Shown: positions 8,737 through 25,329, counted from the stretch's first letter. The stretch is DNA of 48,834 nucleotides from an uncultured Verrucomicrobiales bacterium (GCA_913041895.1 CAJWKQ010000002.1:1-48834); one strand, 5' to 3'. Notes: generated by a model not told the origin, from the sequence alone. A program made the numbers and translations.

Positions 8737-11700
8737 TCAATACCCCATATCAATGGCATATCTGCTGATAACCCTCGGATAAGGCGAAGGCAAATCCTTT
8801 AGGGATCCATCAGCAGCCCTGTACTTCCCGTAATGGCCGCGTTTATATGATTCATGCCACTCGTCCGCTCCAATGAGATCAATAAGCACATGCTCAGCTG
8901 ACTGACCAATAACTTCATAATTATCAATCGTTCCATCTTCCCTCATTCCGGGTCTTCCCTCTGTGCCCGGAGGGTGAAAACGCCTTGCCGGCTTGAGTTG
9001 CTGAGTAAATACATAGGCTTGATACCGCTTCGGGCCGCCTGCCTTAAGCAGTGAAAGTATTTGCATGGGAATCCGTTCTATATCCAGCTCATCAACCCTA
9101 GGAATCAATGCATAATATTGCCCGAGAGTCCCTGCACCCACTATAGGCGGCAGATAGGGGGACTCATCTGTTAATTGAGGAGCAGCCAGAATATCTGTTG
9201 CCCGTTTAAATCGGCCTTTCTTCCTTTCATCTTCAACCCCAATCAGCAACTTTGAATTCCATGTGCTACCTTGAGCTATCTCACTGGTATCAATGAATCT
9301 AAAAGACCAGTTTGGATGGGTTACAGGATCCCTGTAAGCACCCAGTATGCGTTTAGGCGAATAGAGATTCCCAGCCTCGGCAGGCACGTAAGGGAAGGAT
9401 ACTCCATGCAGCACTCCGCTCCACGCTTCAGGTGTGCTATTATTGACTGACAAGCGGCCTCGTAATTTATTGCCACCTGACAAATAAAATGCCTCCAATA
9501 AACGCCGGTCATTAACCGGCTTGGTATCGGAGCTACCCGCCCAATCGGTCCATGATCTGGAATCAAGCAACAGCCCTGGCGTTAGGTAGAATCCGGCTCC
9601 TTCCTGATTGTATCCTTGAATCGCATAATCCCCTAAACTCGCATTCCACACTGTATACTGGTTGGGCCCCAAAACCTCCTTAACCGGCCACACTTCGGAA
9701 GTAAGACTGGGCACACTGGTCCAGGACTCCGGCTTTTCACCTGATAAACCAACTACATCACCCACATTTAGATTATGATCCTCAGCCGTTGTAATCACAC
9801 CTGTATCATCATTAATTCGCTGAATAGCAATTGACCCCGGATCCGCCTTCGATTTTAGGTATAAAGTCTGCCATGGAGTTCCACGATGAACCTGACCCAA
9901 CCATCCTACATTCTGTACACCCCCACGCATGGTATCAGGAAATTTCCACCCATTAATAGGGCTATATACGGGATAAACACCCGGATCTTTTATGTTCGGA
10001 TCATTCTTCCCGCCGGTATTGGTCCTGCCCCAAGGTTGATAGGCATCATTCAGCCTGCACAAATTCACGCCAAAATAATGCCGAGCCAGCCTGTAGAAGG
10101 GGGCTGGACTGCCAGGAGGTGGTGCAGCTTCCGGAGTGCTTGCGTTTGCCTGGAAAGAGCTCGCAGAATACATTTGTCTGAGAGGAATATGAGGATCAGG
10201 ATAAGGACTCCATAAAACCTTGGTCTCATTCATGTTGTTTACCGGATCTTCATCCAAGCTGCCTCCATAGATGTAACTAGGTGCATACACTTTTGTCTGC
10301 CAACCTCTTTCTGAACTGTTAACCAAGGGATCATTTACCTGACTGGAAAGATCAATCTTACGATATTTTCGTCCTTTTAAATAAACCCAATGATCCGGCC
10401 AATTCTCCGATTGGCCCGGGGTCACCACGCCTGAACCCCCTGATTTGAGCCGGTAATAATTATAATTATCGGGATCCAGCACAACCTGGCCTGCCGCGTA
10501 TCCTCCTGCATTGGTCGCATCCCAGACCGGGGCGAAGAGTTCATGATTGGTCATGGGATTAGCCAAACTGGCTGATGGCAAGGCTAGTGTACCATCAAAA
10601 AAATCAACAACCCTACCTCCTGCCCAGATTTGGGCCTTAAACGAAACCTGAATATTACTAAAGCGAATATCAGAAAGGGATTTTTTACTGCCGGGTGTTG
10701 CCCCATCAATCACACGTGCAATCTCAGCGAGCTGCTTATTATCCAATACTGCTGCAATATTCCCCGACCCGGCGTTAAGGTTTATTGCAGCTACTGCCCC
10801 GTTAAATACCACTGGAAACGGCGCCCCTTCCTCAGAGTTGATGCCATTGGAGTCTTTATATTCAGCCACGCCACTACCGCTCACGATTAAATTTTGAATC
10901 ACTAACTGGCAAGTGGGAAGCAACCCTGCTGGAGGCATATTCACTTCCATAGCCAATCGGCCTCTTACCTTATTATTAACGCGATCGTAGGTAAGTCTCA
11001 TGGAGACTTCATTAAGTGCGGGCATCCGGTTGTTGTAGCTCGCAACCGGATTCTCAGGGCCCCTATCCTTTACCCCTAATATCTTGGGTGCACCTCTGCG
11101 GTACCAACTAGTATTAGGTATATCGCCCGCGAACGTGATCTGCCTCTGAAGCCCGGTGAGATAAACGTTATTGATTTCATCCCGATCAAAAACCCCTTCA
11201 TACGCAGTTGGATACCGGTCAGCTCCATTAGCGGTATAGCTATCAACAGACCAGCCTGTTGGTAGCCCTGTAGATGGAATGGGCACTGGCGGATGGACGA
11301 GGGTAAAAAAGTACCCAGGCACCTGATATTGATGAGTCCACAATGCCGCCTGCCTTAGCTTGCCTGAGTTCTGTGTTATCCAAACAGCCTGCCCCAATTC
11401 AGGCCCCACTCTCAGTGGTGAGCTGTAATTAATTACCTCCTTATTATCCAGATAAACTTTAACAAAACGTCCGCTTTCCATTTCAATAGATAGATTCAAA
11501 CCCACCCAATATTTTTCAGAGCGTCCGGGTGAAAATCCGTTCTTCCATACCAGTTCCTCAATGTTCCATCTCCACGATCCTCCATTGTCTGGATACGCAC
11601 CCAACAGCTTCAACTTGTGCGGTGCTGACTGGGCAACACGCTGTTTCTCAAACCCGGCCCCTGTTCCTGAACTTTTTTCCAAAACGATTACGCCTTTGAC

Positions 11701-14457
11701 ATACCCTGTTGAATTAATGGTTTCGATATTCTGCTCCGGGGCACCCAAAGGCTCAAAAAATACACGGTAAGGCCCGTAGTCAATACCCGCCGGACCATTG
11801 GTGAGCTGCTGGCCATAAGTGTCCAATCTGCAGCGGATTTCAGCACTCACCCGACCATCCGCTGAAGGTTCACCAAAGGCCCAGTAGCCGCCGCCACCAT
11901 ACTGCCTGATAACATCCTTGCCCGTTAACTCGGTTTCCGGTGCTCCGGAATAGATATCCCCGATATTGGCTGCCACCTGCAGAATGCGTTCTGTTTCAGG
12001 TGTATAGGAACCCTTCCCGGGAAATGTTGAGGCCGAGCCGCGCCCCCAGGGAATTCCGCTCCCTGTCTTATGCCAAAGCCCCTTGGATGGGTGATGTGCG
12101 CCTATGCCGTAGATTAAAGGGAATGGACTGGCAGGATTCGGAACCGGTAAGGCAGCATCCCCCAGTTGATGAACCGCGCCCACCCCATCACCAACAGTAT
12201 CAACTGATTCATTCAACATGGCCGCTGCCATTTGTTCAACTGCATCAGTTAACCCATCAACCTTGAATTTATGCACTAGTTCCAGGGTATGGGTACCTGA
12301 ATTATTCAGCATCACCGGAACATTCACATAAGGTGACTCTGTATGCCTGAGCTTCCACCTAGTTGGCTCTGATGGATCTAATGGATCCACCATTTCCATT
12401 TTTTCCATTTTAAACACATGATCAAAGTGGACTTGCCCTCCCATGCTCCCGCCTGTTCCGGTCGCAAATTGTGCACTCGAACGAAAACGGACATGGTCGC
12501 CCGGTAACCACCTGTTAAAAACGGTATTTAAAAGGGTGAATTCCCCCGTTGAACTATCGTATTCGAATCGATCTTGTGAACCAAGTGGAGATGAAGCCAG
12601 CCCCCCCCTGATTCCAGGAGCAATCAAAGGAATAGCTTCATCCTTACCAATAAAGTGCACCCGGGATTGCTCATCCAGCCGGGCTGAACGATGCAGCGAA
12701 ACCATTGTGCTGTCCCAAACCTTTACATAGTAAGGAATGATGTCAGCCAGCATGGCTACCGGACGGTAAACCAGCTGGCATTTAACATTCGCCAGTGCAG
12801 CCGGCAAATCCTCCATGGGATCATTTGGAACTGTTAACTGCCGGACCCAACTGCCTGTGGCTGAATCATAAAAGCCCCAACAATATTCCACATTTTCGAT
12901 GGCAAGTTTTTTGAAATTAACATTGATGGCCGACTCGCCTCCATTTTTGAAAGAAAACTGGTGACGTGCCGGGGCAAGTGGAGAATCCAGAAAGACCGAC
13001 GGATGGGTCGCCCAATGGAAAGGCGAACCACCGGCGGCCGGCAAATATCGAATATATAACGAATCATTCCCGAACTGCGCTCTTGAAGAGATCGGGACCC
13101 AAGGTGCGCCGGTGTTGACTCTAACCAATATACGCCAATTGTCTGGCAAATCGGTTATCACCATTTTCACCGGGTCCTCCATTGAGTTCAATCGGTGCGG
13201 AGCACGGGTTTCAAAAGAGTCTCCCTGAATCAGCCCGATTAATCGTTCCTTAATCTGGTCTAGGCTGTGGATGTTTGGATTAATAAGGTCAAAATAGATC
13301 GGGTCCACGATATGTGGCGGCCGGATGTCGGGAACAATTTTATCACCATCCTTCAACCCGTGAGGGTGCAAAAATGAAATTGCAGACTTTCCATCGTAAG
13401 AAGACTTAACCGGATAACCATAACCGTAGGTTGATTCATCGCGTATACTGCTGATATCGAAGCCACCTTTTTCCTCGGGCAATTCAGCAGATGAGAAAGT
13501 GCCCATAAATTTGTAGTATCCATAGGGCTTCTGCCCGTTCCAGTGCGTCCTAAGCCATGTATTTAAAGAATATTCTCCGGATTTAAACTCAAGATCATTG
13601 AATGTGAGAAGTGATTCTGCCGCAGCCCTAGCCCGGGAATTGGGTGCAGCCCTGTTATTATTTAATACATCCTTAAAATCGAGGGAAGGCCGTCCATAAT
13701 TATAGGCATCACCCACCGCTGCACCCAGTTCGTACATGGACCAGGTAAACCTGTAGGGATTCCATTTATCTATACGTGAACCGAACAAATTCGGATGCAT
13801 CTGGAATAAGGGTGCCGCCAGATCTATACTGCGAGGGGTTTGTCCCTGACTACGATTATGGTCCCATGAGGCAGCTGAGTCGGCCCGATGATTATAGCGT
13901 ACATTCAATATCTCACTAACAGGAACGGTCATGTAAGCTACTCGCGCAATGAAAGAATTTCTGGGGCCATTCGGGTTGTCAGGGTCCAGTAGTTCGTTAG
14001 GATTTTTCGTAGGATCATCCAAAATACCAATCCATTCAGGGTCACCGATTTCCAGTTTGGAGAGATCTGAAGGCTGGAAGAACCGATCCTTTCCGGGAGG
14101 GTTATTAACTTCTGAGTTTAGGTTCAGATAGGTTGAGTTGAAATCCTGTTCTCCATTGCCGGTTGTATCGACATACACAGGCACAAATTCTTTAGTATCG
14201 GATCTTTGGGATACCCTGATTATGGGCGTTGCATTATCATCATTGGAAATGGAGTTAATTATACTTGTCCAGGAAACCGACTGACTATTCCCCTGAATAA
14301 AACTTACCTCGGTTCGTTTTAACGAAGCAGTCACCGATGCTCGTTCAAACCTCGCAAAACCTACAAATGCAACGACCAGGAATGTCACCATGGCCAGCAT
14401 AATCAAGGCCACGACCAACACCGCGCCTTGCTCAGTATTTTTCCATTTTACATTCAT
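8737..14457 (-). CDS. giant GspK/PilX-like minor pilin (1906 aa), probable tip adhesin
   Basis: The N-terminus [28 protein letters not shown] resembles the GspK/PilX_N anchor (QRG-[VA]-AL-hydrophobic helix, no Glu5). It is the last gene of a G-H-I-J-K-ordered pilin run. The remaining ~1850 aa matched no family I could recognise by eye. Confidence 0.6.
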
Positions 14458-14467
14458 TATTCACCCC

Positions 14468-15784
14468 CTAGTTTCGAATCCTTATCAATTGCTTGAAGAA
14501 ATAAACACGATCCAAGTTCTCATTTATTTTTTCTATCCGTTGCCTGCACCTCTCTGAGGCCAATCTCACCTCGCGTTGATATTTCTGCTGATGCGGAAGA
14601 TAGGTACCCGTAACATAAGATTCTTCCGCTGCGGAAAGCTGCAAAGCCTCAAGGTCCTGTTCCATTCCGTTTTCCACCTCCTTGAGTAATTTACGGTCTA
14701 ACACAGCAATCTCCACCGACACATGTGTCGGTAAACGGTTGCCCACAAATGGATTTTTGGAAGGAGTGTATTCATCCATTCCTCGATCAAAATTATTGGG
14801 ATCGGCTGCGCGCACCCTAAAATGAATGACCCCGTCAATGAGCCGTGAAAAGCCCATGGGTGCGTCAATCCCGCCTGAGTTCAATTTTGCCCAGTTTCCC
14901 ATATCATCACGCGGATCACCCCACGGTTTATGATCAGGATCATGGGGATCCACTAATTTCCGAGCCATATAATAATTCTTATCTTCGTGAAACAAGACCA
15001 TCGAACCCTTAGGCCAAGTTTTTAATTTATCCCATATCGGAGGCCGTTCTATTGACTGAAAATCTTCGTGTTCTGGGATATGATTCATAAGGCCGGCCTT
15101 GGAGGAAGGAGGCGAGCGATAAATCCAAAGGGCACCAACAGGCGAATCAATCAAATCCACACTGGTAATGCCAAGGGGGTCTGAAATTGGAGTAAAATAA
15201 CGTTCACGGGTGCCAAACTTGTAATGTACCAACCTCCATCCGTTTGCATCTTCAGTAAAAAAACGGCAGTTGTGATGGAAAAGTTCCAGACTTGATCCTG
15301 ATGGGAACTCGCTCGGGGCAGCCGGGACACCGCTATAGTTCACAAAACCATCGGGCTCCATTCTAAGAGTCGCATTCTCACCAACACGCACACCGCCGGC
15401 GGCTTCACGCGTGTTCTTGAAGGGCTTATCAATTAAGGTTTCATCAAATGGTGCCCCCGGATTAGGCGGCAAATAAACAAAAGCGCTAGTAACCGGATTC
15501 CGATCAATGAGATATTCAGGCACCCAACGCAGGTTGGGCTCAGTTCCTATTACAGTTCCCACCCGGCTAAGGCCTTGGAAATCTTCAACCAATATATCCA
15601 TCGCAGAACGCGATTCATCCATGGCAATTGCCCGGTTTTGGCCGGTAATAAATACCTTTTGCACCTTATCAAAGATGGAGTAGAGCATGATGATGAGAAC
15701 CAGCGCAATGGTCACTGCCCCCATGAGCTCCACCATGGTAAAGGCCCTTGTATTTTTCAGTCGATGGCACAGTAAAATATTCAC
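14468..15784 (-). CDS. prepilin-type N-terminal methylation domain protein, GspJ/PilW-like, expanded (438 aa)
   Basis: Leader plus mature N-terminus KNTRAFTMVELMGAVTIALVLIIMLYSIFDKV, followed by the AMDESRSAMDILVEDFQGL segment typical of GspJ/PilW. The start overlaps the upstream stop by 4 nt. Confidence 0.6.
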   Translation of the reverse strand: MNILLCHRLKNTRAFTMVELMGAVTIALVLIIMLYSIFDKVQKVFITGQNRAIAMDESRSAMDILVEDFQGLSRVGTVIGTEPNLRWVPEYLIDRNPVTSAFVYLPPNPGAPFDETLIDKPFKNTREAAGGVRVGENATLRMEPDGFVNYSGVPAAPSEFPSGSSLELFHHNCRFFTEDANGWRLVHYKFGTRERYFTPISDPLGITSVDLIDSPVGALWIYRSPPSSKAGLMNHIPEHEDFQSIERPPIWDKLKTWPKGSMVLFHEDKNYYMARKLVDPHDPDHKPWGDPRDDMGNWAKLNSGGIDAPMGFSRLIDGVIHFRVRAADPNNFDRGMDEYTPSKNPFVGNRLPTHVSVEIAVLDRKLLKEVENGMEQDLEALQLSAAEESYVTGTYLPHQQKYQREVRLASERCRQRIEKINENLDRVYFFKQLIRIRN

Positions 15785-17718
15785 TGGCTAACCCTCCATA
15801 GCCAAGGAACCATTACTTGTTTCAGTGGAGGCGTCGGATTACTGTAAGGCACCCAATTTCTCCTTGTTTCAAATGCTCCCCATATAGGTGTTAAGCTGGT
15901 GTAGCATTCTTTGTTAATTGACTTCTCATCCAAAGTGGCAGGCCTGTGAGCAGTCACCCTCAATCTTTTGGAGAGCATGAAATCACCCCCCACATGCTCC
16001 ACAAGAGCGGGGCGGGGCGGCTGGTTTTCCTCCACTGTTCGATCGAACTGATTATCAGGACTTGGGTTTGAAGGCTTATCCCATTCTCTTGTTCTGGCAT
16101 ATTGATCTAACAAGCCAGCCCAAGTCTGACCTTTACCTAAAAAACTGATTATATAATTGTCTTTCACACTCAGCGCAGCAGGCAAGTCCACAGCTTTGTA
16201 TAGTAAATACTCATCTCCTGATGTGGTTGCATTTTCCTTTCCAAACCAAGCCCGTTGGCGATACCGAGCGACCTTGCCCCCGGGCACCCAAGCGATTTGA
16301 AGTGGATCTGCTGCCCCATAAGGATACAGCCACATGCCTGAATGACCAATCGGAGTCACAATGTTTTCAGGCCCAAATCTACTCCATGACTGTAAAACTT
16401 CCGGGAGACTGATATTCCATTCATCAGGCCTGAAAAATGGATCCAGATCCTGATAATGATACTCCTTGTGGGCTTCCTCACGATCTTTGATCCCGATAGG
16501 TAATGGCATTGTCACATCGAAATCCCAATCACCTCCGGCTTTCCATATTTTTTTCGGCATGCCCACTAGATTTATCCGTCTGGGCCCGCCATACTTCTTG
16601 GGAGGTAGAACATTATCAACAAGCCAAGGATACCCATTATCGTCTTCAATTTTATCAAGCCCAGAATGGTAAGGATTGAAAAGCCCCTTTAACCTCGGGT
16701 CACCAGAGTCTATACGTTCACCCGGCCGAAGAACGCGCATCTCCTTCATAAATCGTCTTTCCTGAAGTGTAAGCATATCTTCAGTAAGTGCTTTCTCAAT
16801 TCGGCCGGGTTGCTTGATGGTGAAGCTTTTCTTCTTAAATTTGATAAATGAATCGGGCTCTTCTGACAGCGCAATAACATTCCTGATAAGATCGAATCTG
16901 TTTTTTGCATTCGGAATTGCAGCAGTTGGCTTGGGTTCCAGCATTTCCACCACCTCCTCAAGGAGCGGCCAATAAAATGTCATTTTGATGCTGCTACCCG
17001 CCTGCCCGTAGCCGATCCCCGTTTTTGGATCGTTGTTTTCAGGCTGCACCTGCAGAATGTAACCGGTGGAAAAATCGCGGTTCGGGAAATGGTACTCGTC
17101 GCTCTCAGGTTCTGCCCCATAAAAACGATCGAACAAGGCTCCATTCACTGCCCTGACCAGCACAAAATTGCCTTCTGAATCGCCCCACGGTTTATTTTTC
17201 TCATCAGGATCTGCAGGATCGATATCATTGAGTTTTAAAAGCCATCCCTGCACATCTGAAGACCAATATTTTTTAGCCTTAGCCAATGACAGACTATTGG
17301 CAGGAAAAGCACTCCAGGCCCGTGTTCCATTGAAATCCGTATAATCTAAAGGATAAGGCGTCGCACCGGGTGACGCAATATCCACGTAACTTACTATTTC
17401 GTTCGCACCCGGAACCAGGCGACCCCGACGAGGATTAATAAAAGTATGTGTAAACTTACCGCGTTGAACTTCCACCCGATCGACCCGTTCATTGATATCC
17501 TCCAGCAATAAACCATCTGAAAGCAATACTTCATGCCAGTACTGGGCTTCATAGCGAATAATGGTTTCCTCCTGATTATTCTTTTGTGCGGTCAATCCAA
17601 ATGGAAGAATGGAAAATACCCCGACCAAGCCCAGCGCTATAACCCCAATGGCCAAAGCAACTTCTGGCAGGGTAAAAGCCCGCTTTCTAAGTTTTCTGAA
17701 TAACGCTACAGTCATCAC
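15781..17718 (-). CDS. prepilin-type N-terminal methylation domain protein, GspI/PilV-like, expanded (645 aa)
   Basis: N-terminus RKRAFTLPEVALAIGVIALGLVGVFSILP resembles GspI/PilV (xFTLxEV...LGLxG). It overlaps both neighbours by 4 nt. Confidence 0.55.
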   Translation of the reverse strand: MMTVALFRKLRKRAFTLPEVALAIGVIALGLVGVFSILPFGLTAQKNNQEETIIRYEAQYWHEVLLSDGLLLEDINERVDRVEVQRGKFTHTFINPRRGRLVPGANEIVSYVDIASPGATPYPLDYTDFNGTRAWSAFPANSLSLAKAKKYWSSDVQGWLLKLNDIDPADPDEKNKPWGDSEGNFVLVRAVNGALFDRFYGAEPESDEYHFPNRDFSTGYILQVQPENNDPKTGIGYGQAGSSIKMTFYWPLLEEVVEMLEPKPTAAIPNAKNRFDLIRNVIALSEEPDSFIKFKKKSFTIKQPGRIEKALTEDMLTLQERRFMKEMRVLRPGERIDSGDPRLKGLFNPYHSGLDKIEDDNGYPWLVDNVLPPKKYGGPRRINLVGMPKKIWKAGGDWDFDVTMPLPIGIKDREEAHKEYHYQDLDPFFRPDEWNISLPEVLQSWSRFGPENIVTPIGHSGMWLYPYGAADPLQIAWVPGGKVARYRQRAWFGKENATTSGDEYLLYKAVDLPAALSVKDNYIISFLGKGQTWAGLLDQYARTREWDKPSNPSPDNQFDRTVEENQPPRPALVEHVGGDFMLSKRLRVTAHRPATLDEKSINKECYTSLTPIWGAFETRRNWVPYSNPTPPLKQVMVPWLWRVSQ

Positions 17719-18920
17719 TTGCTCCTGATATAAACTTTTAATGGTTTACCCTGAAGGGCTGGGGCTTGCCCCGCTAAGCGTTCAATCCTAGCCTTAAGCC
17801 TGAGGGCCGACTGCCGGTCCGGTATTTTTTTATAAGCCGGTTTCAGTTTATATGTATTGTCGAGAAACCAAGTAGTGCTGGGGAAAGATTTATCGGCTGC
17901 CACGCTCCAATCCGTACCCGGACCTTTCCAATTACTATCATATACCGCCCCCAGCTCATTAACCAAATTAACTATAGGCGGATGGCTCGTTATCGCATTT
18001 TCAAAATGAGGCGGATATATGGGTGAGGAATGGATAAAGAGCTGATATTGACTCTTTTGAAGATCCAGTCCCGCAGCAGCTTCCTCCTCAGACAACTCCT
18101 TAATCTCGGTACGACCAGTAACCCCATTAATGTGAAACCATTTTCTGTCATTTGAAGCAACCGCCTCAGGCGGGTCTCCTTTACCGGGAATATATGCATC
18201 AAATTGATTTTTTCCTGGAGGCAATACCCCACCCTTTCCCACCGAAAGAAATACTCCTTCAAGAACCCTTCCACCCAGATTCGATTCAAGTTCTCCACGT
18301 TTATTAAATTTTATACAGGGAAGCTCAAGGCCGACACGATCGGCAAAGGGCGGCCTGCTTCCCTTTAGATATTCTACAGGTACTCTCGCCAACCCATTTA
18401 ATTCAGACCGATTAAAATGATATCCAGCCGGCAGGGTCTTCCAGTCCGTCCACCATCTCGTTGACGGATTACCCGGCTGATCGGTTATTAAATACTCAGA
18501 ATAAATTGCGTAACTAGTCAACTGTGAGCCTAGAAGTGCGTTCACGCCTTTATCCTGTGAAAAATAAGCCCTCTTATTAGCATCACTGAATACAGTGCCA
18601 CCAACCACTGTATATCTTGGGGGTATTGGGGGTGTGCTGAGCGGGTCACCTGAGTTCGGATATATATCATCATAGAGCGGCATGAACACCATGTAGACTG
18701 GCACCCCTTTCTCCAACGCCATTTGACGCGCGCGGTTAAGATCTCCCACCACCTGAGTTCGCGCCATCCCATCACCGTCTCCGCCCAAAATTCCATCCAG
18801 CGAGGGAAGTGTGAGCCTCAGGATAATCAGCATGATCGCAACGACCCCCAACAATTCAACCAGAGTAAAGGCAGCACGCCTTCTATCTAGTTCAACCGTC
18901 TTCTGGCCATATAAATCCAT
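17715..18920 (-). CDS. prepilin-type N-terminal methylation domain protein, GspH/FimU-like, expanded (401 aa)
   Basis: N-terminus RRAAFTLVELLGVVAIMLIILRLTLPSL followed by VVGDLNRARQMALEKGVPVYMVF, the GspH/FimU-like pattern. It starts 1 nt after the upstream stop. Confidence 0.55.
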   Translation of the reverse strand: MDLYGQKTVELDRRRAAFTLVELLGVVAIMLIILRLTLPSLDGILGGDGDGMARTQVVGDLNRARQMALEKGVPVYMVFMPLYDDIYPNSGDPLSTPPIPPRYTVVGGTVFSDANKRAYFSQDKGVNALLGSQLTSYAIYSEYLITDQPGNPSTRWWTDWKTLPAGYHFNRSELNGLARVPVEYLKGSRPPFADRVGLELPCIKFNKRGELESNLGGRVLEGVFLSVGKGGVLPPGKNQFDAYIPGKGDPPEAVASNDRKWFHINGVTGRTEIKELSEEEAAAGLDLQKSQYQLFIHSSPIYPPHFENAITSHPPIVNLVNELGAVYDSNWKGPGTDWSVAADKSFPSTTWFLDNTYKLKPAYKKIPDRQSALRLKARIERLAGQAPALQGKPLKVYIRSK

Positions 18921-18921
18921 A

Positions 18922-19815
18922 TCAATCCCAGCTCTTTATGTTATCAATATCAGGGGTGTTTTTCGTATCATATTTGGTTTTTTCGTTATTAGGTACATTG
19001 CCGTAATTAACTCCCCTTGGATAACCCGCCATACCTTCAATTTCCCGATCCGGACCGGCAGTCCAAATCATAACATCTCCCTTGATAGCGCTATACTTTA
19101 TAATTCTCCCATTAAGCGAATGCCCGTTCCAATTAACTCGCGACTGATGAGGCGCAAGGCCTTCTTCGTTGAATTTCGAACCATAGTAATAATCGTAACA
19201 ATATCCATCCCGGTTCAGATCCATGGAAATTTTGAATTTGTTGCCGAATGGGTCACGGTAAATTCGAGCATCGGACACCCCCCCCCTTCTAAGCTGTCCA
19301 GCCGTGCCTTCCGGGCCCAGTTCTTTTGGTGCAAGATATACGTTCTTCTTAGGGTTTCGGGCCCCGTTTGGATTTGTACCATTAGGATTAGTATCATTCA
19401 TAAGGATGTACATGATGTCACTGTTGAAAGTTAACCTATTTCTCAGGTTAGGCAGAGCAGTAGCATCAAACCTCGGAAAAGTGACATTATAAATGGGATC
19501 TTTATTGTACATAGAATTGGGGTAACCAGCTGTTGAGTGATCGTTATTGTTAAAGATGTATCCTGAACTTGAATCACCAACCAAATTTCTCGGGTAATTA
19601 GCCGGAAGCGGAAATCGTTGATAGTCAGTCCTGTAGGCTTTAATCGCCGCATCCAAGTCTTTTATGCTAATACGGGCAGTGGCAACTTTGGCTTTTGTTT
19701 TAGACTTAGCAATCACCGGCAATAAAATACCGGCCAAAATAGCAACGATAGCGATAACCACTAAAAGCTCAACCAGCGTGAAGGCCCTTCTTGTAATTTC
19801 TATTTTCTCTTTCAT
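18922..19815 (-). CDS. GspG-like pseudopilin paralog with a large insertion (297 aa)
   Basis: N-terminus RRAFTLVELLVVIAIVAILAGILLPVIAKSK plus SIKDLDAAIKAYRTDYQRFP (GspG-like helix). C-terminal IWTAGPDREIEG resembles the GspG GxDG region. It contains a G9 homopolymer. Confidence 0.7.
   Translation of the reverse strand: MKEKIEITRRAFTLVELLVVIAIVAILAGILLPVIAKSKTKAKVATARISIKDLDAAIKAYRTDYQRFPLPANYPRNLVGDSSSGYIFNNNDHSTAGYPNSMYNKDPIYNVTFPRFDATALPNLRNRLTFNSDIMYILMNDTNPNGTNPNGARNPKKNVYLAPKELGPEGTAGQLRRGGVSDARIYRDPFGNKFKISMDLNRDGYCYDYYYGSKFNEEGLAPHQSRVNWNGHSLNGRIIKYSAIKGDVMIWTAGPDREIEGMAGYPRGVNYGNVPNNEKTKYDTKNTPDIDNIKSWD
19278..19286 (-). repeat. G9 (coding strand) homopolymer inside the GspG-like pilin gene
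   Basis: The plus strand reads ...acaCCCCCCCCCttc.... The coding strand AGA AGG GGG GGG GTG encodes RRGGV. Confidence 0.9.
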
Positions 19816-19825
19816 GTTTCTCCTC

Positions 19826-20422
19826 TTAATTTGACCAGTTTGAAATAACCTTTACGATATCATCACCGCCTCCGGCAACTCCATCATCCCCATAATCCCC
19901 GTATTCAACCCAAAGATCATACGAGTTCTTATTGTAAGTTGGGTTGTATGAATTGTAATGCCACTTGGTTAACTTCCCTCGCACAACATCTGGAGCCGAT
20001 GAAAGGAGAATCTCAGGGTTGTCATCATCACGCGGATCAGCTGTGCCATTATCATCCGTACTATTTCGACCATTTGGGAGAAATTGCCTGCCTTGACTTG
20101 GGCATAAATATTTATAAAGCCTGTTTGCCCAAGGCTTGCCAGTTGTATCCAGAGCCACAGCTTCATCCCATTCTTTCCTCGGATATTGAATTCCATCCCA
20201 CGATATACTTGGCGGAAACCCATTCTTCTCTGCCTTGTAGTTTTCCAGCGCCAATTCAATGCTCGCCATTTCCGTCATCAGCCTGGACTCGATCTGCTTG
20301 CTCTTTACCCGACCGTACAAACCCAGTGTCAATCCTGCCAGAATTCCGGCTATCACTATCACCACCAAAATTTCAGTCAGGGTAAACCCGCGCATATTAT
20401 TTTTTGTTTGAACCAGTTTCAT
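19826..20422 (-). CDS. gspG: major pseudopilin, GspG family
   Basis: Leader MKLVQTKNNMRG then FTLTEILVVIVIAGILAGLTL. It also has EMASIELALENYKAEKNGFPP and a C-terminal GDDGVAGGGDDIVKVISNW (classical GspG xDDIxNW ending). The ORF track extends to 20458, but that start overlaps brnA by 32 nt. The ATG at 20422 lies 4 nt after the brnA stop and gives a normal 12-residue leader. Confidence 0.8.
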   Translation of the reverse strand: MKLVQTKNNMRGFTLTEILVVIVIAGILAGLTLGLYGRVKSKQIESRLMTEMASIELALENYKAEKNGFPPSISWDGIQYPRKEWDEAVALDTTGKPWANRLYKYLCPSQGRQFLPNGRNSTDDNGTADPRDDDNPEILLSSAPDVVRGKLTKWHYNSYNPTYNKNSYDLWVEYGDYGDDGVAGGGDDIVKVISNWSN

Positions 20423-20426
20423 CAGA

Positions 20427-20696
20427 TTATTTTTTATTTTCTTCCTCCATTCGTTCACTTAACCACTGCTTGATCATGCTCTGGTAATTCAGGAAACGTG
20501 TTCGGGCAATCCATTTGATTTTAGACAACATGCGCGGATCCATGCGCAGGGTAATGGTTACCGAATCCTTGGAGGTTGGGCTGGCCATAACTGAATTTTC
20601 CATCAACCGCACGTCCAGTTGAGCCTCTTCCCAAAAAGCGGCCTCCTCTTTTTCCCCGGAAAACTCCGGAACTTCTTTCCAATCACTAACAATCAT
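20427..20696 (-). CDS. brnA: BrnA/CopG-family antitoxin (partner of the DUF497 toxin)
   Basis: 89 aa. EEAAFWEEAQL, then VTITLRMDPRMLSKIKWIARTRFLNYQSMIKQWLSERM matches the pattern I know for CopG-type antitoxins paired with BrnT (FWd...isiRl...lk.lA...g..YQtliK.wl.Erl). It overlaps the toxin gene by 4 nt. Confidence 0.7.
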   Translation of the reverse strand: MIVSDWKEVPEFSGEKEEAAFWEEAQLDVRLMENSVMASPTSKDSVTITLRMDPRMLSKIKWIARTRFLNYQSMIKQWLSERMEEENKK

Positions 20697-21108: not shown

Positions 21109-22371
21109 CTAAGATCCGAGCTTATCCATCATCTTGATAAGCGGTAGGAACATCGCGATAACGATACTGCCAACAATAACAGCTAGAAAACAAATCATCA
21201 CCGGCTCTAGAAGAGATGTAAGGGCACTAACGGCATTATCAACTTCCTCCTCATAAACATCAGCCACTTTCACTAACATTTCCGGCAAAGCGCCGGTTTC
21301 CTCTCCAATATCAATCATGCTCACAACCATGGGCGGAAAGATGCCAGAAGCTTCTAGAGGCTTGGTGATAGTTTCACCCTCTTTCACCGCGTCGTATACC
21401 TTGTCGATCGCGTTGGAAAGATGAACATTGCCAGCAGTCTCTTTAACAATACTCAAAGCCTGAAGAATGGGCACACCGGATGAAATGAGCGTACCCAGAG
21501 TACGAGCAAAGCGCGCGATCGCAACTTTTCTCACCAATGGCCCAAGAGCAGGCATCAGTAGTTTAAATTTATCCCACACCCATCTACCAGCCTTCGTTTT
21601 GCTAATAATTAGCTTGAATACAATGAAAAATGCGAAGGTTCCACCAAGAACCGCAATCACATTGTTCTTAATGGCATCTGAAATATTAAGCACCAGCATG
21701 GTAAACCCAGGAAGAGTTTCCCCATCACCCAACATATCGGCGAAAATAGCCTTAAACTTGGGAATAACAAAAGTCATCAAAACCCCAACAATAATAACTG
21801 CCACAATCATTACCGCAACAGGGTAGAACATTGCGGACTTAACCTTGCCCTTAATGGACTCAGCCTTCTCTTGGAACTCAGCCAGACGGTTCAGGGCAAT
21901 TTCGAGAACACCACCAATCTCTCCAGCCTTGACCATGTTGATATACAACTTATCAAAAATCTTGGGATGCTTGGCCAAAGCTTCTGAAAAGGTGGACCCT
22001 CCCCCAATTGTCTCGCCAATATCATTGATAATGCCCTTGAAATAGGCGTTTGGAATGGACTTGGAAAGCGTAGTCATACCGCGCATGAGCGGCAAACCCG
22101 CATCAATCAAAACCGCCAACTGGCGGGTAAACATACAAAGCTCTTTGGTGTTTACAATCGGTAATGCAAAACCGATATCACCCTTTTTCTTTCCTTTTTT
22201 CTCCTTGCGCTTCTTTGCTTCCTCAGGCGTATCCTTAACCTCAGCCACCTGGGTTGGATAGAAGCCCATTTCCTTGATCCGGGAAATTGCCTCATTCTGG
22301 CTACCCACCTCAAGAGTACCCTCCTTTTGCTTTCCATCCTTATCGATGGCAGTATAGCTGAAAAGCGGCAT
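21109..22371 (-). CDS. type IV pilus / T2SS platform protein (PilC/GspF family)
   Basis: 420 aa with a typical N-terminus FSYTAIDKDGKQKEGTLEVGSQNEAISRIKEMGFYP. Two T2SSF-like repeats (FTRQLAVLIDAGLPL and FARTLGTLISSGVPIL) and hydrophobic TM segments. Confidence 0.92.
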   Translation of the reverse strand: MPLFSYTAIDKDGKQKEGTLEVGSQNEAISRIKEMGFYPTQVAEVKDTPEEAKKRKEKKGKKKGDIGFALPIVNTKELCMFTRQLAVLIDAGLPLMRGMTTLSKSIPNAYFKGIINDIGETIGGGSTFSEALAKHPKIFDKLYINMVKAGEIGGVLEIALNRLAEFQEKAESIKGKVKSAMFYPVAVMIVAVIIVGVLMTFVIPKFKAIFADMLGDGETLPGFTMLVLNISDAIKNNVIAVLGGTFAFFIVFKLIISKTKAGRWVWDKFKLLMPALGPLVRKVAIARFARTLGTLISSGVPILQALSIVKETAGNVHLSNAIDKVYDAVKEGETITKPLEASGIFPPMVVSMIDIGEETGALPEMLVKVADVYEEEVDNAVSALTSLLEPVMICFLAVIVGSIVIAMFLPLIKMMDKLGS

Positions 22372-22374
22372 ATA

Positions 22375-24132: not shown

Positions 24133-24140
24133 GACTATAA

Positions 24141-25319
24141 TTATTCAGGTGGAGGAGGCGGAGGAGGCGCACCCTCAGCCCCAGGGGCTCCGGGCGGGGC
24201 TTCTCCTCGCTCGGCTGCTTCTGCCGCCTGTTGTTCATCATATTCTTTTAACCGCATCATCATCCCATTGTAATCTTGCGCTTTATCCTGACAATCTTCA
24301 CGACTAACCACCCCCTCCGCATACCTATTAAATAACCCATCATCAAGTGTGACCATCCCGTATTTCTGTCCTGTCTGTTGGTCAGAAGGTATACGAAAAG
24401 TCTTATTGTCACGAATAAGTGCAGCGATAGAGGGTGTATTAATCATGATATCATGAATCGCACACCTACCTTTCGGGATTCGCTTAACGAGAATCTGAGA
24501 AATCACCGCCTGCAAAACAGTCGAAAGCTGAATACGGATAGTCTCTTGCTGCTGCATGGGAAAAGCATTCACAATTCTGTCAACCGTTTTGGCGGCTCCC
24601 GTGGTGTGGAGTGTGCCGAAAACCAAGTGACCGGTCTCGGCTGCTGATACAGCCATTTCAATGGTTTCCAAGTCGCGCAGCTCACCTACAAGAATCACCT
24701 CTGGGTCCTGACGTAAGGCTCGTCTTAAAGCCTCCGCAAAACTTGGTACATCCTTATGGACTTCACGCTGAGTGGTGATTGCCTCCTTGTGAGGATGGTA
24801 AAATTCTATGGGATCCTCAATGGTAATAATGTGAGCATGATCCTGCTCCTCGTTAATGATATTAATCATCGAAGCGAGTGTAGTAGATTTTCCCGAACCG
24901 GTTGGTCCTGTCACCAGTATCATCCCACGAGGTGTGTTAAGCAGACGCATGATAAGCGTCTCATCAAGCCCGATCACATCTAATGGCAACAGCTCGTTAG
25001 GAATTTGCCTAAGAACAAGCGCCATATTACCTCGCTCCTTAAATGCAGAAACTCGGAAACGCGCCTTGGTACCGAATGCAAAGCCAAAATCCGCACCCCC
25101 CACTGTCCTGATATTTTGAACTTCATCATCGTTGGCAATTGCCTTCACCAGATATTCAACGTCTTCAGGCTCGCAATCTGGACCCTCAACCCGCTTCAAC
25201 GTACCCCCATCACGATATGCAGGAGGAATACCAACCCGCACATGTAAGTCAGCCGCACCCGAATCAACCATAAGGTTGAGTAAATCCGGCATTTTGTACA
25301 TTGGTTCTTTTTCTGGCAT
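24141..25319 (-). CDS. pilT: PilT-family retraction ATPase with a Pro-rich C-terminal tail
   Basis: 392 aa with no N-terminal GSPII_E_N domain. Motifs MVDSGAADLHV, Walker A GPTGSGKSTT, ILVGELRD, GHLVFGTLHTTGA, and IAALIRDNK (AIRNLIRE-like PilT motif). Tail ...AERGEAPPGAPGAEGAPPPPPPPE. Confidence 0.9.
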   Translation of the reverse strand: MPEKEPMYKMPDLLNLMVDSGAADLHVRVGIPPAYRDGGTLKRVEGPDCEPEDVEYLVKAIANDDEVQNIRTVGGADFGFAFGTKARFRVSAFKERGNMALVLRQIPNELLPLDVIGLDETLIMRLLNTPRGMILVTGPTGSGKSTTLASMINIINEEQDHAHIITIEDPIEFYHPHKEAITTQREVHKDVPSFAEALRRALRQDPEVILVGELRDLETIEMAVSAAETGHLVFGTLHTTGAAKTVDRIVNAFPMQQQETIRIQLSTVLQAVISQILVKRIPKGRCAIHDIMINTPSIAALIRDNKTFRIPSDQQTGQKYGMVTLDDGLFNRYAEGVVSREDCQDKAQDYNGMMMRLKEYDEQQAAEAAERGEAPPGAPGAEGAPPPPPPPE

Positions 25320-25329
25320 AAATATTTAT

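What the first reader, a model, noticed from the sequence alone, without database searches (positions are those of the whole stretch)
8737..14457. 1906-aa GspK/PilX-anchored giant protein: possible fusion of a tip pilin with a PilY1-like adhesin role
**Seen in the sequence**
- One uninterrupted 5.7 kb ORF.
- Its only recognisable feature is the N-terminal GspK/PilX-type anchor ([23 protein letters not shown]).
- The rest shows no obvious internal tandem repeats.
- It contains short motifs reminiscent of small carbohydrate-binding beta modules.
- One example is W-x7-Y-x2-G-x-VV-x6-YY-x2-K ([27 protein letters not shown], about 10444-10523).
- A similar W-x2-G-x2-V-x7-YY-x-A occurs in the neighbouring J-like protein (WPKGSMVLFHEDKNYYMARK, about 14961-15020).
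- This loosely resembles the CBM5/12 pattern.
- A G8 tract (12601-12608, coding IRGGLA) also lies in this gene.

**Inference**
- In T4aP systems a separate large PilY1 adhesin sits on the PilVWX tip.
- Here no PilY1-like gene follows, so the adhesin function may be fused to the K/X-like subunit.
Basis: partly seen in the sequence, partly recalled or inferred. Interest (0 to 1): 0.68.

Follow-up and report, generated by a model that had tools for sequence, protein, structure and literature searches.

The report
Giant modular tip pilin of Verrucomicrobiota
This 1906-residue gene most likely encodes the topmost (GspK/PilX-class) subunit of a retractile type IV pilus in a marine Verrucomicrobiota bacterium, greatly enlarged by inserted lectin-like and other beta-rich domains, so it is an extreme, unannotated example of the known trick of building the adhesin into a tip pilin.

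Summary
Window 8737-14457 (-) is one 1906-aa ORF, the last gene of a pilB-pilT-pilB-pilC-pilin-pilin-H-I-J-K operon. uvrA follows it, and no PilY1-like gene is present.

The N-terminus (aa 5-69) matches GspK's signal peptide and alpha-1 helix (hhalign 87-94%). It lacks Glu at +5, whereas the three upstream minor pilins have it.

No Pfam or NCBIfam model covers the rest. TIGR02600 and GspK models hit only the helix.

An exhaustive profile search found a large uncurated family: 1157 clusters at 50% identity and at least 563 genome loci, nearly all Verrucomicrobiota. Most members are 1200-1400 aa.

Only aa 1-250, about 1450-1540 and about 1636-1860 are conserved across that family. The roughly 1200 aa in between are variable modules:
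- a ConA/LamG-like sandwich (Foldseek);
- small beta-barrel repeats;
- a CBM5/12-like module, whose profile hits only chitin-binding domains in the PDB but at sub-threshold E-values.

No PilY1 propeller or vWA domain was found.

Best reading: a K-type tip pilin with a split core and a grafted adhesin payload, analogous to CpaL, ComZ and S. sanguinis PilC. It is not a PilY1 fusion. A GspK-like fold for the core and glycan binding are inferred, not shown. I rate it a new variant of a known kind, of moderate interest.

The parts
8737..14457 (-). Whole gene: 1906-aa giant K-type (GspK/PilX-class) minor pilin, last gene of the pilus operon
   Evidence: ORF list and translation. There are 23 full-length homologues, all unannotated. 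Synteny is conserved in L001 and in genome loci.
14245..14457 (-). Leader (aa 1-11, predicted cleavage after G11) plus long hydrophobic alpha-1 helix (aa 12-71); residue +5 is Val, not Glu
   Evidence: hhalign against a GspK alignment: aa 5-69 match GspK 2-66, prob 87-94%, E 1e-7 to 4e-6. A GspK HMM hits the N-termini of most of the 172 family proteins searched (first 60 of 138 hit rows viewed, E 1e-8 to 2e-5). PilX_N gives E 0.023 and TIGR02600 positions 1-42 give E 0.048. AF2 predicts a helix at 8-71.
13708..14244 (-). N-terminal part of the family-wide conserved core (aa 72-250)
   Evidence: Covered by 62-97% of 111 mid-size relatives in the HMM coverage map. It holds invariant residues such as GDPxW 138-142. 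pLDDT is low when modelled without the C-terminal core.
10111..13707 (-). Insert 1 (aa ~251-1449): about 1200 aa of variable beta-rich modules, the payload
   Evidence: Essentially not covered by the 1150-1500-aa relatives, whose equivalent insert is 566-830 aa. AF2 pLDDT is about 70-90 for aa 335-1130 and 1147-1292, mostly beta.
13078..13455 (-). Small beta-barrel domains carrying the PHxLxxGDxV motif (aa 335-460; related copies near aa 620-645 and 1551-1582)
   Evidence: Profile self-comparison gives P 3e-5 to 9e-5 between windows at about 354-385, 414-433 and 1551-1582. pLDDT is 80-94. There is no PDB sequence relative.
12601..12608 (-). G8 homopolymer on the coding strand (codes RGG within IRGGLA, aa 616-621)
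   Evidence: It lies in a loop with pLDDT below 50 and 48% alignment occupancy. It is not conserved in P0002 or P0003 and is not more than chance.
11413..11913 (-). Concanavalin-A/LamG-like beta-sandwich module (aa ~849-1015)
   Evidence: Foldseek PDB hits to galectins, neurexin LNS and BoNT Hc: E 2.5e-5 to 1e-3, prob up to 1.0, TMt about 0.5. BFVD gives LamG/ConA-like phage proteins. There is a weak profile hit to levanase CBM66 (E 0.7). The module is present in 16 of 23 subfamily members. Foldseek gives no query coordinates, so the boundaries come from the DSSP strand pattern and the CBM66 alignment.
10582..11019 (-). Elongated sheet of very long beta-strands (aa 1147-1292)
   Evidence: AF2 model 2 has strands of 12-22 residues at pLDDT 72-91. 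No fold assignment was obtained.
10342..10545 (-). CBM5/12-like small beta module (aa ~1305-1372; W1312, Y1320, YY1334-1335, W1357)
   Evidence: The module profile A6 searched against the PDB returns nine hits at E<=10. Eight are chains carrying known CBM5/12-type chitin-binding domains (1ed7, 3wx7, 4nz1 etc.); the best, 7b5h All3316, E 0.006, aligns in the same W..Y..G..V..Y..W register but its fold was not checked. Pfam CBM_5_12 gives E 0.005 and 0.17 in two homologues and no hit in the query itself. pLDDT is about 70-80.
9838..10110 (-). Middle block of the conserved core (aa 1450-1540) with the invariant motif [19 protein letters not shown] (aa 1518-1536)
   Evidence: Coverage is 96-100% across relatives and the columns are invariant. 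VHRGTPWQ was one of two peptide patterns that together matched at least 599 genome stretches, 563 of them confirmed as relatives. pLDDT is low in the fragment lacking the N-terminal core.
9559..9834 (-). Insert 2: extra small beta-barrel domain (aa 1542-1633), absent from the 1150-1500-aa relatives
   Evidence: Coverage is about 0.01 in relatives, where the middle and C-terminal core blocks are only 3-21 aa apart. AF2 predicts beta structure at pLDDT 66-86.
8740..9552 (-). C-terminal block of the conserved core (aa 1636-1906): helical subdomain followed by a beta-sheet
   Evidence: Coverage is about 100% across relatives up to aa ~1860. AF2 predicts helices at 1676-1802, then strands at 1811-1823, 1847-1862 and 1893-1902. 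There is only a weak colinear hhalign match to GspK 242-311 (E 0.0045-0.007, prob 5-8%).
8752..8781 (-). Predicted terminal beta-strand (aa 1893-1902, [10 protein letters not shown]), candidate cis C-beta strand
   Evidence: AF2 strand E1187-1196 of model 2. An alternating hydrophobic pattern at the extreme C-terminus is conserved in relatives. Its role is inferred from PMC13533445.
14468..15784 (-). J-like minor pilin (438 aa; FTMVE, Glu+5), with its own CBM5/12-like motif at 14957-15016
   Evidence: N_methyl, weak GspJ and weak TIGR02599 hits.
15781..17718 (-). I-like minor pilin (645 aa; FTLPE, Glu+5)
   Evidence: Weak TIGR02598 and TIGR02532 hits. It is about twice the size of its counterpart in Limisphaerales relatives.
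17715..18920 (-). H-like minor pilin (401 aa; FTLVE, Glu+5)
   Evidence: TIGR02596 E 9e-7 for the N-terminal part, plus N_methyl.
18922..20458 (-). Two GspG/PilA-like pilins (297 and 210 aa)
   Evidence: N_methyl above cutoff, T2SSG, and the N-terminal part of TIGR01710.
21109..27057 (-). Pilus motor and platform genes: PilB-like (25330-27057), PilT (24141-25319), PilB-like (22375-24132), PilC/GspF (21109-22371)
   Evidence: NCBIfam: pilT_fam 411.6 bits against a cutoff of 319.1; type_IV_pilB 594 and 570 bits (below the equivalog cutoff); PilC/GspF 399-414 bits.

Best explanation
The gene encodes the apical, K-type (GspK/PilK/PilX-class) minor pilin of a retractile type IVa-like pilus of a marine Verrucomicrobiota bacterium.

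Shown:
- It is the last gene of a pilB-pilT-pilB-pilC-pilin-pilin-H-I-J-K operon.
- Its N-terminus is a GspK-like leader plus alpha-1 helix without Glu+5, the mark of the first, topmost subunit.
- It belongs to a large, uncurated, almost exclusively verrucomicrobial family.
- Family-wide conservation is confined to aa 1-250, about 1450-1540 and about 1636-1860. The roughly 1200 aa in between, plus a 95-aa second insert, are lineage-variable beta-rich modules.
- One module has a ConA/LamG-like lectin fold. One resembles CBM5/12 chitin-binding domains.

Inferred:
- The N- and C-terminal conserved blocks fold together into one enlarged pilin-like core.
- The last strand (aa 1893-1902) is supplied in cis, as in GspK and CpaL, and is read by the enlarged I/J-like pair to license assembly.
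- The inserted modules project from the pilus tip and act as the built-in adhesin, probably for polysaccharide or particle surfaces. They would take the place that the separate PilY1/PilC protein has in classical T4aP.
- PilT-driven retraction then pulls the cell to the bound substrate.
For: Operon and gene order:
- establish the operon. PilT scores above its NCBIfam cutoff.
- The H-, I- and J-like genes have FT(L/M)xE with Glu+5. The target has V at +5 in the hhalign register.

N-terminal helix:
- hhalign to GspK gives 87-94% probability and E down to 8e-8.
- A GspK HMM hits the N-termini of most of the 172 family proteins searched.
- PilX_N gives E 0.023.

Family size and taxonomy:
- 1157 clusters at E<=1e-3 and 731 at E<=1e-30.
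- At least 563 genome loci, almost all Verrucomicrobiota.
- The F-G-G-H-I-J-K order is conserved.

Split core and variable inserts:
- Shown by the coverage maps.
- The two most conserved regions (aa 33-331 and 1395-1536) are the ones AF2 could not fold when each was modelled without the other.

Modules:
- ConA/LamG fold.
- CBM5/12-like module.
- The ConA-like module is present in only 16 of 23 close homologues, consistent with modular gain and loss.

C-terminal strand and literature:
- A terminal strand is predicted and its pattern is conserved.
- PilK-family proteins lack Glu+5. In systems without PilC/PilY1 they provide the last beta-strand in cis and often carry a large insertion before it (CpaL, ComZ, V. 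cholerae) (PMC13533445).
- Modular tip pilins with lectin or vWA modules act as adhesins (PMC8179133, PMC9934059, PMC11870444).
Against: - Beyond the alpha-1 helix there is no statistically significant sequence similarity to GspK. Pfam T2SSK and T2SSK_1st do not hit, and hhalign to GspK 242-311 gives only E 0.005-0.03 at 2-8% probability.
- No Foldseek hit to GspK, XcpX or any pilin appeared. The searches were dominated by the ConA-like domain, and the core regions were poorly modelled.
- CBM5/12 similarity is sub-threshold. The profile was assembled partly by motif, so there is some circularity.
- No ligand-binding residues were checked in the ConA-like module. ConA-like and small beta modules also serve purely structural roles.
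- No secretin, PilMNOP or prepilin peptidase gene is in the window, so the machine is incompletely seen.
Confidence: 0.68

Rival explanations
1. It is the tip pseudopilin of a type II secretion-like or display machine rather than an adhesive pilus. The large inserted modules would recognise or push cargo, for example the giant subtilase encoded next to the K-like gene in relatives, or gate the secretin. They would not bind external surfaces.
For: - GspK is the closest profile match for the helix.
- The pilins are GspG-like by NCBIfam.
- In most Limisphaerales-type relatives a 2200-3300-aa gene directly follows the K-like gene. The one copy scanned (L019) is a membrane-anchored subtilase (S8 + P-domain + PPC) and could be cargo.
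- No PilY1 is present, as in T2SS.
Against: - A bona fide PilT retraction ATPase, above its family cutoff, sits in the operon. The assembly ATPases score slightly better as PilB than as GspE.
- No GspC, L, M or D genes are in the window.
- The window's clade lacks the downstream subtilase yet has a larger K protein.
- Lectin-type modules fit adhesion better than cargo handling.
Confidence: 0.15
2. It is a true gene fusion of a K/X-type pilin with a PilY1/PilC homologue. That is, the C-terminal part descends from PilY1.
For: - No separate PilY1 gene is present.
- The protein is of PilY1-plus-PilX size.
- The extreme C-terminus is a conserved beta-strand, as in PilY1/PilC (PMC13533445).
Against: - There is no PilY1/PilC beta-propeller (Pfam Neisseria_PilC) or vWA signal at E<=1.
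- None appears among the top 50 Foldseek matches of either model.
- The predicted C-terminal region is helical plus a short sheet, not a propeller.
- The payload is an insertion inside a conserved core, not a C-terminal appendage.
Confidence: 0.04
3. It is a cell-surface or envelope protein that merely uses an N-terminal hydrophobic helix as a signal anchor. It would be unrelated to pilus assembly and would sit beside pilus genes by chance or for co-regulation.
For: - AF2 gave no confident pilin fold after the helix.
- The globular part has no significant similarity to any pilin.
Against: - The helix matches GspK and PilX profiles specifically, including the QRG-type leader.
- The position immediately after three Glu+5 minor pilins, with a 10-nt gap, is conserved in most of the 39 verrucomicrobial genome loci examined.
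- The N-terminal 250 aa are among the most conserved parts.
Confidence: 0.08

Closest known systems
GspK / PilK / PilX family of apical minor (pseudo)pilins (e.g. ETEC GspK, PDB 3CI0; P. aeruginosa PilX/XcpX)
   Same: - A QRG-type leader and hydrophobic alpha-1 helix without Glu+5.
- Last gene after H-, I- and J-like minor pilins.
- A domain inserted into the pilin core, which in GspK is the ~180-aa alpha-domain (PMC13533445, PMC8179133).
- A predicted terminal beta-strand supplied in cis.
   Different: - It is six times larger.
- Pfam T2SSK/T2SSK_1st and NCBIfam GspK models do not match the globular part.
- hhalign is only weakly colinear at the C-terminus.
- The insert is about 1200 aa of beta-rich modules instead of an alpha-domain.
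- It is encoded with PilT.
CpaL/TadG of Tad pili, ComZ of Thermus thermophilus, and the V. cholerae competence-pilus K homologue: K-type tip subunits with a large insertion in systems lacking PilY1
   Same: - Same logic: an N-terminal pilin-like module, a large functional insertion, and an extreme C-terminal strand that returns to the pilin sheet (PMC13533445).
- CpaL carries a vWA domain plus beta-barrels (PMC11870444).
- ComZ carries a beta-solenoid DNA receptor (PMC6561018).
   Different: - No detectable sequence relationship was tested or found.
- The payload is different: ConA/LamG-like, CBM5/12-like and small beta-barrels, with no vWA or solenoid seen.
- Size is 1906 aa against about 550-630 aa.
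- The conserved C-terminal core here is about 450 aa, not a short strand.
Modular type IV pilins (Streptococcus sanguinis PilB with a vWA module, PilC with a ConA-like lectin module; ETEC CofB)
   Same: - A functional module is grafted on a pilin for display at the pilus tip.
[quoted passage not shown] That is the same fold class as aa 849-1015 here.
   Different: - Those pilins carry a class III signal peptide with the IPR012902 motif and a C-terminally appended module. Here the payload is inserted within the core and the N_methyl motif is not detected.
- The largest modular pilin in the InterPro survey was 860 aa (PMC8179133).
TIGR02600 'Verru_Chthon cassette protein A' (with cassette proteins B, C, D = TIGR02598/02599/02596)
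   Same: - It is a large protein (model length 1296) with a K-like N-terminal helix, and cassette proteins B, C and D are the best curated NCBIfam matches, weakly, for the I-, J- and H-like neighbours here.
- That these cassettes are four-gene units in Verrucomicrobia/Chthoniobacter whose B, C and D proteins are prepilin-like is from my own recollection of the model descriptions, not checked here.
- It is the best curated NCBIfam hit for the target and for several relatives.
   Different: - Only model positions 1-63 (the helix) match.
- The score is 11.5 bits against a cutoff of 332.3.
- None of the seven mid-size relatives tested reaches the cutoff either.
- This is therefore a separate, uncurated family.
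PilY1/PilC tip adhesins of T4aP
   Same: - Proposed role: a large tip-displayed adhesin required at assembly initiation.
- A conserved terminal beta-strand.
   Different: - It is not a pilin fusion partner by homology. There is no C-terminal beta-propeller and no vWA domain.
- PilY1 is a separate, Sec-exported non-pilin protein.

Membership tests
GspK/PilK/PilX-class apical minor pilin | N-terminal class III-type leader followed by a long hydrophobic alpha-1 helix homologous to that of GspK/PilX | tested here: met
   hhalign aligns aa 5-69 with GspK 2-66 at 87-94% probability, E 4e-6 to 8e-8. A GspK HMM hits the family N-termini. PilX_N gives E 0.023. AF2 predicts a helix at 8-71.
GspK/PilK/PilX-class apical minor pilin | No Glu at position +5 of the mature protein, while the other pilins of the operon have it | tested here: met
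   With cleavage after G11 (the hhalign register against QRG|V of GspK), the mature protein starts AVLVV, so +5 is Val. The H-, I- and J-like proteins and both G-like pilins have FT(L/M)xE. The criterion is stated in PMC13533445.
GspK/PilK/PilX-class apical minor pilin | Globular domain matching the T2SSK models (Pfam PF03934/PF21687, NCBIfam NF037980) or the GspK fold | tested here: not met
   No Pfam or NCBIfam hit at E<=1 beyond the helix. hhalign to GspK 242-311 gives only E 0.0045-0.03 at 2-8% probability, though colinear. No GspK appears among the Foldseek hits, but the core was poorly modelled, so the fold question itself remains open.
GspK/PilK/PilX-class apical minor pilin | Encoded last in an H-I-J-K minor-pilin block of a type IV filament operon | tested here: met
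   Gene order is PilB-PilT-PilB-PilC-(BrnTA)-G-G-H-I-J-K. The same order occurs in relatives.
GspK/PilK/PilX-class apical minor pilin | Terminal beta-strand completing the K sheet, in cis when no PilY1 is present | tested here: inconclusive
   AF2 predicts a strand at aa 1893-1902, and an alternating hydrophobic C-terminal pattern is conserved. Its docking onto an N-terminal sheet or onto the J-like protein could not be modelled.
PilY1/PilC tip adhesin | C-terminal PilY1/PilC beta-propeller (IPR008707 / Pfam Neisseria_PilC) | tested here: not met
   No Pfam hit at E<=1. No propeller appears in the top 50 Foldseek matches of either model. The C-terminus is predicted as helices plus a short sheet.
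PilY1/PilC tip adhesin | N-terminal vWA domain (in the P. aeruginosa and M. xanthus type) | tested here: not met
   No vWA signal by Pfam or Foldseek.
TIGR02600 Verru_Chthon cassette protein A | Full-length match above the curated cutoff (332.3 bits) | tested here: not met
   11.5 bits, positions 1-42 only. Relatives reach at most 31 bits, and only on the helix.
CBM5/12 chitin-binding module | Match to Pfam PF02839 above the gathering score (26.2 bits) | tested here: not met
   The query segment gives no CBM_5_12 hit. Two homologues reach 17.3 bits (E 0.005) and 12.4 bits (E 0.17).
CBM5/12 chitin-binding module | Profile- or fold-level relationship to solved CBM5/12 domains, with the W..Y..G.V..Y..W aromatic pattern | tested here: inconclusive
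   Of the nine PDB sequences hit by the module profile at E<=10, eight carry known CBM5/12-type chitin-binding domains and all three alignments printed are in the same register, but E is only 0.006-6. The aromatic positions W1312 and W1357 are at least 90% conserved.
Concanavalin A-like lectin/glucanase (LamG, galectin) fold | Jelly-roll beta-sandwich superimposable on known members | tested here: met
   Foldseek prob 1.0 to many galectin CRDs, TMt 0.45-0.56, E 1e-4 to 1e-3. Neurexin LNS gives E 2.5e-5. LamG-like phage proteins appear in BFVD. This is fold only; sugar-binding residues were not examined.
Modular type IV pilins (sensu Raynaud et al. 2021) | Pilin module carrying the IPR012902/N_methyl motif plus an extra non-pilus domain | tested here: inconclusive
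   Extra modules are present. The N_methyl motif is not detected in the target, as expected for a K-type subunit. The concept fits, but the formal InterPro definition does not.

The most novel reading that the evidence does not exclude
This would be the largest pilin-class protein so far noted. It is a K-type tip subunit whose pilin core is split by a roughly 1200-aa cassette of exchangeable glycan-binding modules (ConA/LamG-like and CBM5/12-like, with a further CBM5/12-like motif in the J-like partner).

Under this reading, marine Verrucomicrobiota, which specialise in polysaccharides, use a PilT-retracted pilus as a grappling hook for chitin or algal-polysaccharide particles. The whole H-I-J-K tip complex, about 3400 aa in total, would have been enlarged into a PilY1-independent adhesive organelle.

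The family (at least 1157 clusters at 50% identity) would be a new, phylum-wide class of tip adhesin, with lineage-specific payload swapping.
Probability: 0.3. Interest if true: 0.65.

Novelty: new variant of a known kind. Interest (0 to 1): 0.5.

Why it matters
How type IV pili acquire binding specificity, and how systems without PilY1/PilC initiate and cap the fibre, are active questions (PMC13533445, PMC8179133).

This locus adds three things:
- It shows a phylum-wide, completely unannotated family in which the apical K subunit itself is expanded to 1200-1900 aa.
- The conserved core is split by a variable module cassette, and the neighbouring H/I/J subunits are co-expanded.
- It offers natural test cases for the cis beta-strand licensing model.

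It also suggests how abundant marine and soil polysaccharide degraders attach to particles.

For annotation, one new profile would name more than a thousand 'hypothetical proteins'. That profile should be built on the core blocks, including the invariant [10 protein letters not shown] and [13 protein letters not shown] motifs.

Tried and rejected
- **Pfam and NCBIfam on the whole protein and on segments.** Nothing reached a cutoff.
- **PDB sequence search with the full family profile.** Nothing significant; there was only a faint levanase CBM66 hit.
- **Second word-indexed homologue search with the profile.** It added only one fragment.
- **TIGR02600 membership.** Rejected, because only the helix matches, both in the target and in relatives.
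- **hhalign of GspK against N-terminal, C-terminal, middle, full-length and insert-deleted core alignments.** Only the helix is significant.
- **AF2 in two overlapping 1200-aa halves.** The inserted modules folded (pLDDT 70-90). The conserved N- and C-terminal core blocks did not.
- **Foldseek against PDB (twice) and BFVD.** These returned only ConA/LamG-like matches. No query coordinates are reported and the models could not be cropped.
- **PDB search with the small beta-barrel (aa 1538-1640) profile.** No meaningful hit.
- **hhalign of the ConA-like slice against the window's own DUF1080 protein.** No relation.
- **PilY1 fusion.** Rejected for lack of a propeller or vWA domain.
- **Phase variation at the G8 tract.** Not supported: the tract is expected by chance, is not conserved and lies in a variable loop.
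- **Literature search for 'Verru_Chthon cassette'.** Zero papers.

Full report
**1. The observation**

Window 8737-14457 (minus strand) is a single ATG-initiated ORF of 1906 codons. It starts 10 nt after the stop of the upstream gene, behind a GGGGGTG Shine-Dalgarno-like stretch. It ends 37 nt before uvrA.

- the hydrophobic anchor is aa 9-31;
- the WDATN...YYRLK motif is aa 1312-1338 (10444-10524);
- the G8 tract is C8 on the + strand at 12601-12608, encoding IRGGLA;
- the neighbour's WPKGSMVLFHEDKNYYMARK lies at 14957-15016.

TRF finds no tandem repeats. Pfam and NCBIfam give nothing above threshold.

**2. Context**

Read 5'->3' on the minus strand, the operon contains:
- a PilB-like ATPase (25330-27057);
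- PilT (24141-25319; 411.6 bits against a cutoff of 319.1);
- a second PilB-like ATPase (22375-24132);
- PilC/GspF (21109-22371);
- a small BrnT/BrnA-like pair;
- two GspG/PilA-like pilins (210 and 297 aa);
- three oversized prepilin-like proteins of 401, 645 and 438 aa, whose best but weak NCBIfam matches are Verru_Chthon cassette proteins D, B and C, and GspJ;
- the 1906-aa gene.

The three upstream proteins carry FT(L/M)xE with Glu at +5. The target has ...EQG|AVLVV..., so Val is at +5.

The next genes downstream are uvrA, a TPR lipoprotein gene and thiC. No PilY1, secretin, PilMNOP or prepilin peptidase gene is in the window.

**3. Is it a K-type pilin?**

A GspK alignment built from E. 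coli K-12 GspK and 25 diverse homologues was compared with the family by hhalign.
- It aligns to aa 5-69 of the target at 87% probability (E 3.7e-6).
- With a 134-sequence family alignment this rises to 94% (E about 1e-7).
- A GspK HMM hits the N-terminus of most of the 172 family proteins searched.
- Pfam PilX_N gives E 0.023.

Lack of Glu+5 is the accepted mark of PilK-family apical subunits (PMC13533445).

Beyond the helix the evidence is weak. No T2SSK model hits. hhalign gives only a colinear, non-significant match of the C-terminal region to GspK 242-311 (E 0.0045-0.03, 2-8% probability). This holds even after computationally removing the inserts.

So the K-type call rests on the helix, the missing Glu and the gene order. 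It does not rest on the globular fold.

**4. The family**

The word-indexed search found only 23-24 relatives. All are unnamed or labelled 'hypothetical protein'; the two that carry an organism name are Verrucomicrobiota MAGs. None has a Pfam domain.

The exhaustive profile search with aa 1075-1906 found 1157 clusters (50% identity) at E<=1e-3 and 731 at E<=1e-30. Most are 1200-1400 aa.

A scan of one genome per species found at least 563 loci, nearly all Verrucomicrobiota (Limisphaerales/Pedosphaera and Verrucomicrobiales types). The nearest are a marine MAG (SP324) and a single-cell genome (AG-365-D08), at 63-64% identity.

These relatives are not TIGR02600 members. Only model positions 1-63 match.

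The F-G-G-H-I-J-K order is conserved.

**5. Architecture**

An HMM of the close subfamily was mapped onto 111 mid-size relatives.
- Only aa 1-250, about 1450-1540 and about 1636-1860 are conserved family-wide. The middle block holds the invariant [19 protein letters not shown].
- In the relatives the first gap is 566-830 aa and the second is 3-21 aa. In the target they are about 1200 aa and about 95 aa.

AF2 was run on two overlapping halves with 23-24-sequence alignments.
- It folded the inserted region well (pLDDT 70-94 for aa 335-1130 and 1147-1292).
- It gave low confidence exactly for the conserved blocks, aa 33-331 and 1395-1536, when each was modelled without the other.

This pattern is what a split core would give, with N- and C-terminal parts forming one domain and a payload inserted between them. 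That is inference, not demonstration.

The extreme C-terminus (aa 1893-1902) is predicted as a beta-strand. It has a conserved alternating hydrophobic pattern in relatives.

**6. The modules**

- **ConA/LamG-like sandwich.** Foldseek of both models against the PDB returns only concanavalin-A-like jelly rolls: galectin CRDs at prob 1.0 and TMt about 0.5, neurexin LNS at E 2.5e-5, and botulinum Hc. BFVD gives LamG/ConA-like phage proteins. From the strand pattern and a faint CBM66 alignment this module is aa ~849-1015. It is present in 16 of 23 close homologues.
- **Small beta-barrel repeats.** Profile self-comparison reveals a dispersed PHxLxxGDxV motif in small beta-barrel domains at about 354-385, 414-433, about 620-645 and 1551-1582 (P 3e-5 to 9e-5).
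- **CBM5/12-like module.** A 15-sequence profile of it retrieves nine PDB sequences at E<=10. Eight carry known CBM5/12-type chitin-binding domains (1ED7, 3WX7, 4NZ1 and others); the best hit, 7B5H All3316 at E 0.006, aligns in the same register but was not checked. Pfam CBM_5_12 hits two homologues at E 0.005 and 0.17 but not the query. I regard the CBM5/12 assignment as plausible but unproven. The profile included sequences chosen by motif, including the J-like neighbour.
- **What was not found.** No beta-propeller and no vWA domain appeared anywhere.

**7. Mechanism proposed**

Shown:
- operon membership;
- a K-type N-terminus;
- a split conservation pattern;
- a lectin-fold module.

Inferred from published work on K-type subunits (PMC13533445, PMC11870444, PMC6561018, PMC8179133, PMC9934059):
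- the protein is the first subunit of the fibre;
- its core pairs with the enlarged I/J-like dimer;
- the last strand is supplied in cis, because no PilY1/PilC is present;
- the inserted modules are displayed at the tip as the adhesin;
- PilT retraction then transmits force to the bound substrate.

Ellison et al. explicitly note that T4F lacking tip adhesins often have a large insertion in the K homologue before the donor strand. This protein is an extreme case of that. It is also much larger than the largest modular pilin (860 aa) in the InterPro survey of Raynaud et al..

**8. Rivals**

- **T2SS-like cargo-handling role.** This is possible. The pilins are GspG-like, and relatives have a giant subtilase gene right after K. 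PilT, the absence of GspC/L/M/D genes from the window, and the lectin-type modules argue for an adhesive pilus.
- **Literal PilY1 fusion.** Rejected.
- **Pilus-unrelated surface protein.** Unlikely, given the specific helix match and the conserved synteny.

**9. Verdict**

It is wrong in its PilY1 analogy at the level of homology and in the assumed architecture.

This is a new variant of a known kind. It belongs to a large unannotated verrucomicrobial family and is of moderate interest.

Noticed in passing
L019:11194-19101 (and the gene after the K-like gene in most Limisphaerales-type loci: L016-L020, L022, L024, L026, L027, L030, L031, L036, L037, L043, L051, L053-L056, L062, L064-L066, L069, L070, L076, L078, L079, L082): In the 1280-1490-aa branch of the family, a 2200-3300-aa gene directly follows the K-like gene. 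In L019 it is a membrane-anchored subtilase (Peptidase_S8 + P-domain + PPC). The window's clade has uvrA there instead, and a larger K protein. Whether the protease is cargo, a partner or unrelated is unknown.
   Followed up: partly
window 14468-18920 (-): All three other tip subunits are also enlarged: H-like 401 aa, I-like 645 aa, J-like 438 aa. The I-like protein is about twice the size of its counterpart in Limisphaerales relatives (about 250-330 aa). The J-like protein has its own CBM5/12-like motif at 14957-15016.
   Followed up: partly
window 20427-20995 (-): A BrnT/BrnA-type toxin-antitoxin pair sits between pilC and the pilin genes. It consists of a 100-aa BrnT-like ORF (E 0.005) overlapping by 4 nt an 89-aa CopG-antitoxin ORF (E 2.7e-12, above cutoff). 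The same arrangement is present in the 40%-identical locus L001.
   Followed up: partly
window 19278-19286: There is a C9 run on the + strand (G9 on the coding strand) inside the 297-aa GspG/PilA-like pilin gene. Together with the G8 in the target gene, both runs of 8 or more in the window lie in pilus genes. The count (2 against about 1.4 expected on this C-rich strand) is not significant, and phase variation was not tested.
   Followed up: partly
window 30484-37981 (-): A bacterial alpha-2-macroglobulin (1745 aa; MG domains, bait region) lies next to a PBP1C-type transglycosylase/transpeptidase (765 aa). This is the usual paired arrangement.
   Followed up: no
window 45728-48828 (-): Two adjacent ORFs of 513 and 520 aa have no Pfam or NCBIfam hit.
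   Followed up: no
window 27200-27982 (-): A secreted DUF1080 / 3-keto-disaccharide hydrolase-family protein (ConA-like fold) is encoded immediately upstream of the pilus operon. It shows no detectable sequence relation to the ConA-like module of the target.
   Followed up: yes
window 10111-10134 (aa 1442-1449): The 99%-identical homologue P0001 differs mainly by deletion of an 8-residue proline-rich stretch (PEAAPPPG), plus three substitutions next to it. This lies just before the conserved middle core block and suggests a length-variable linker.
   Followed up: no
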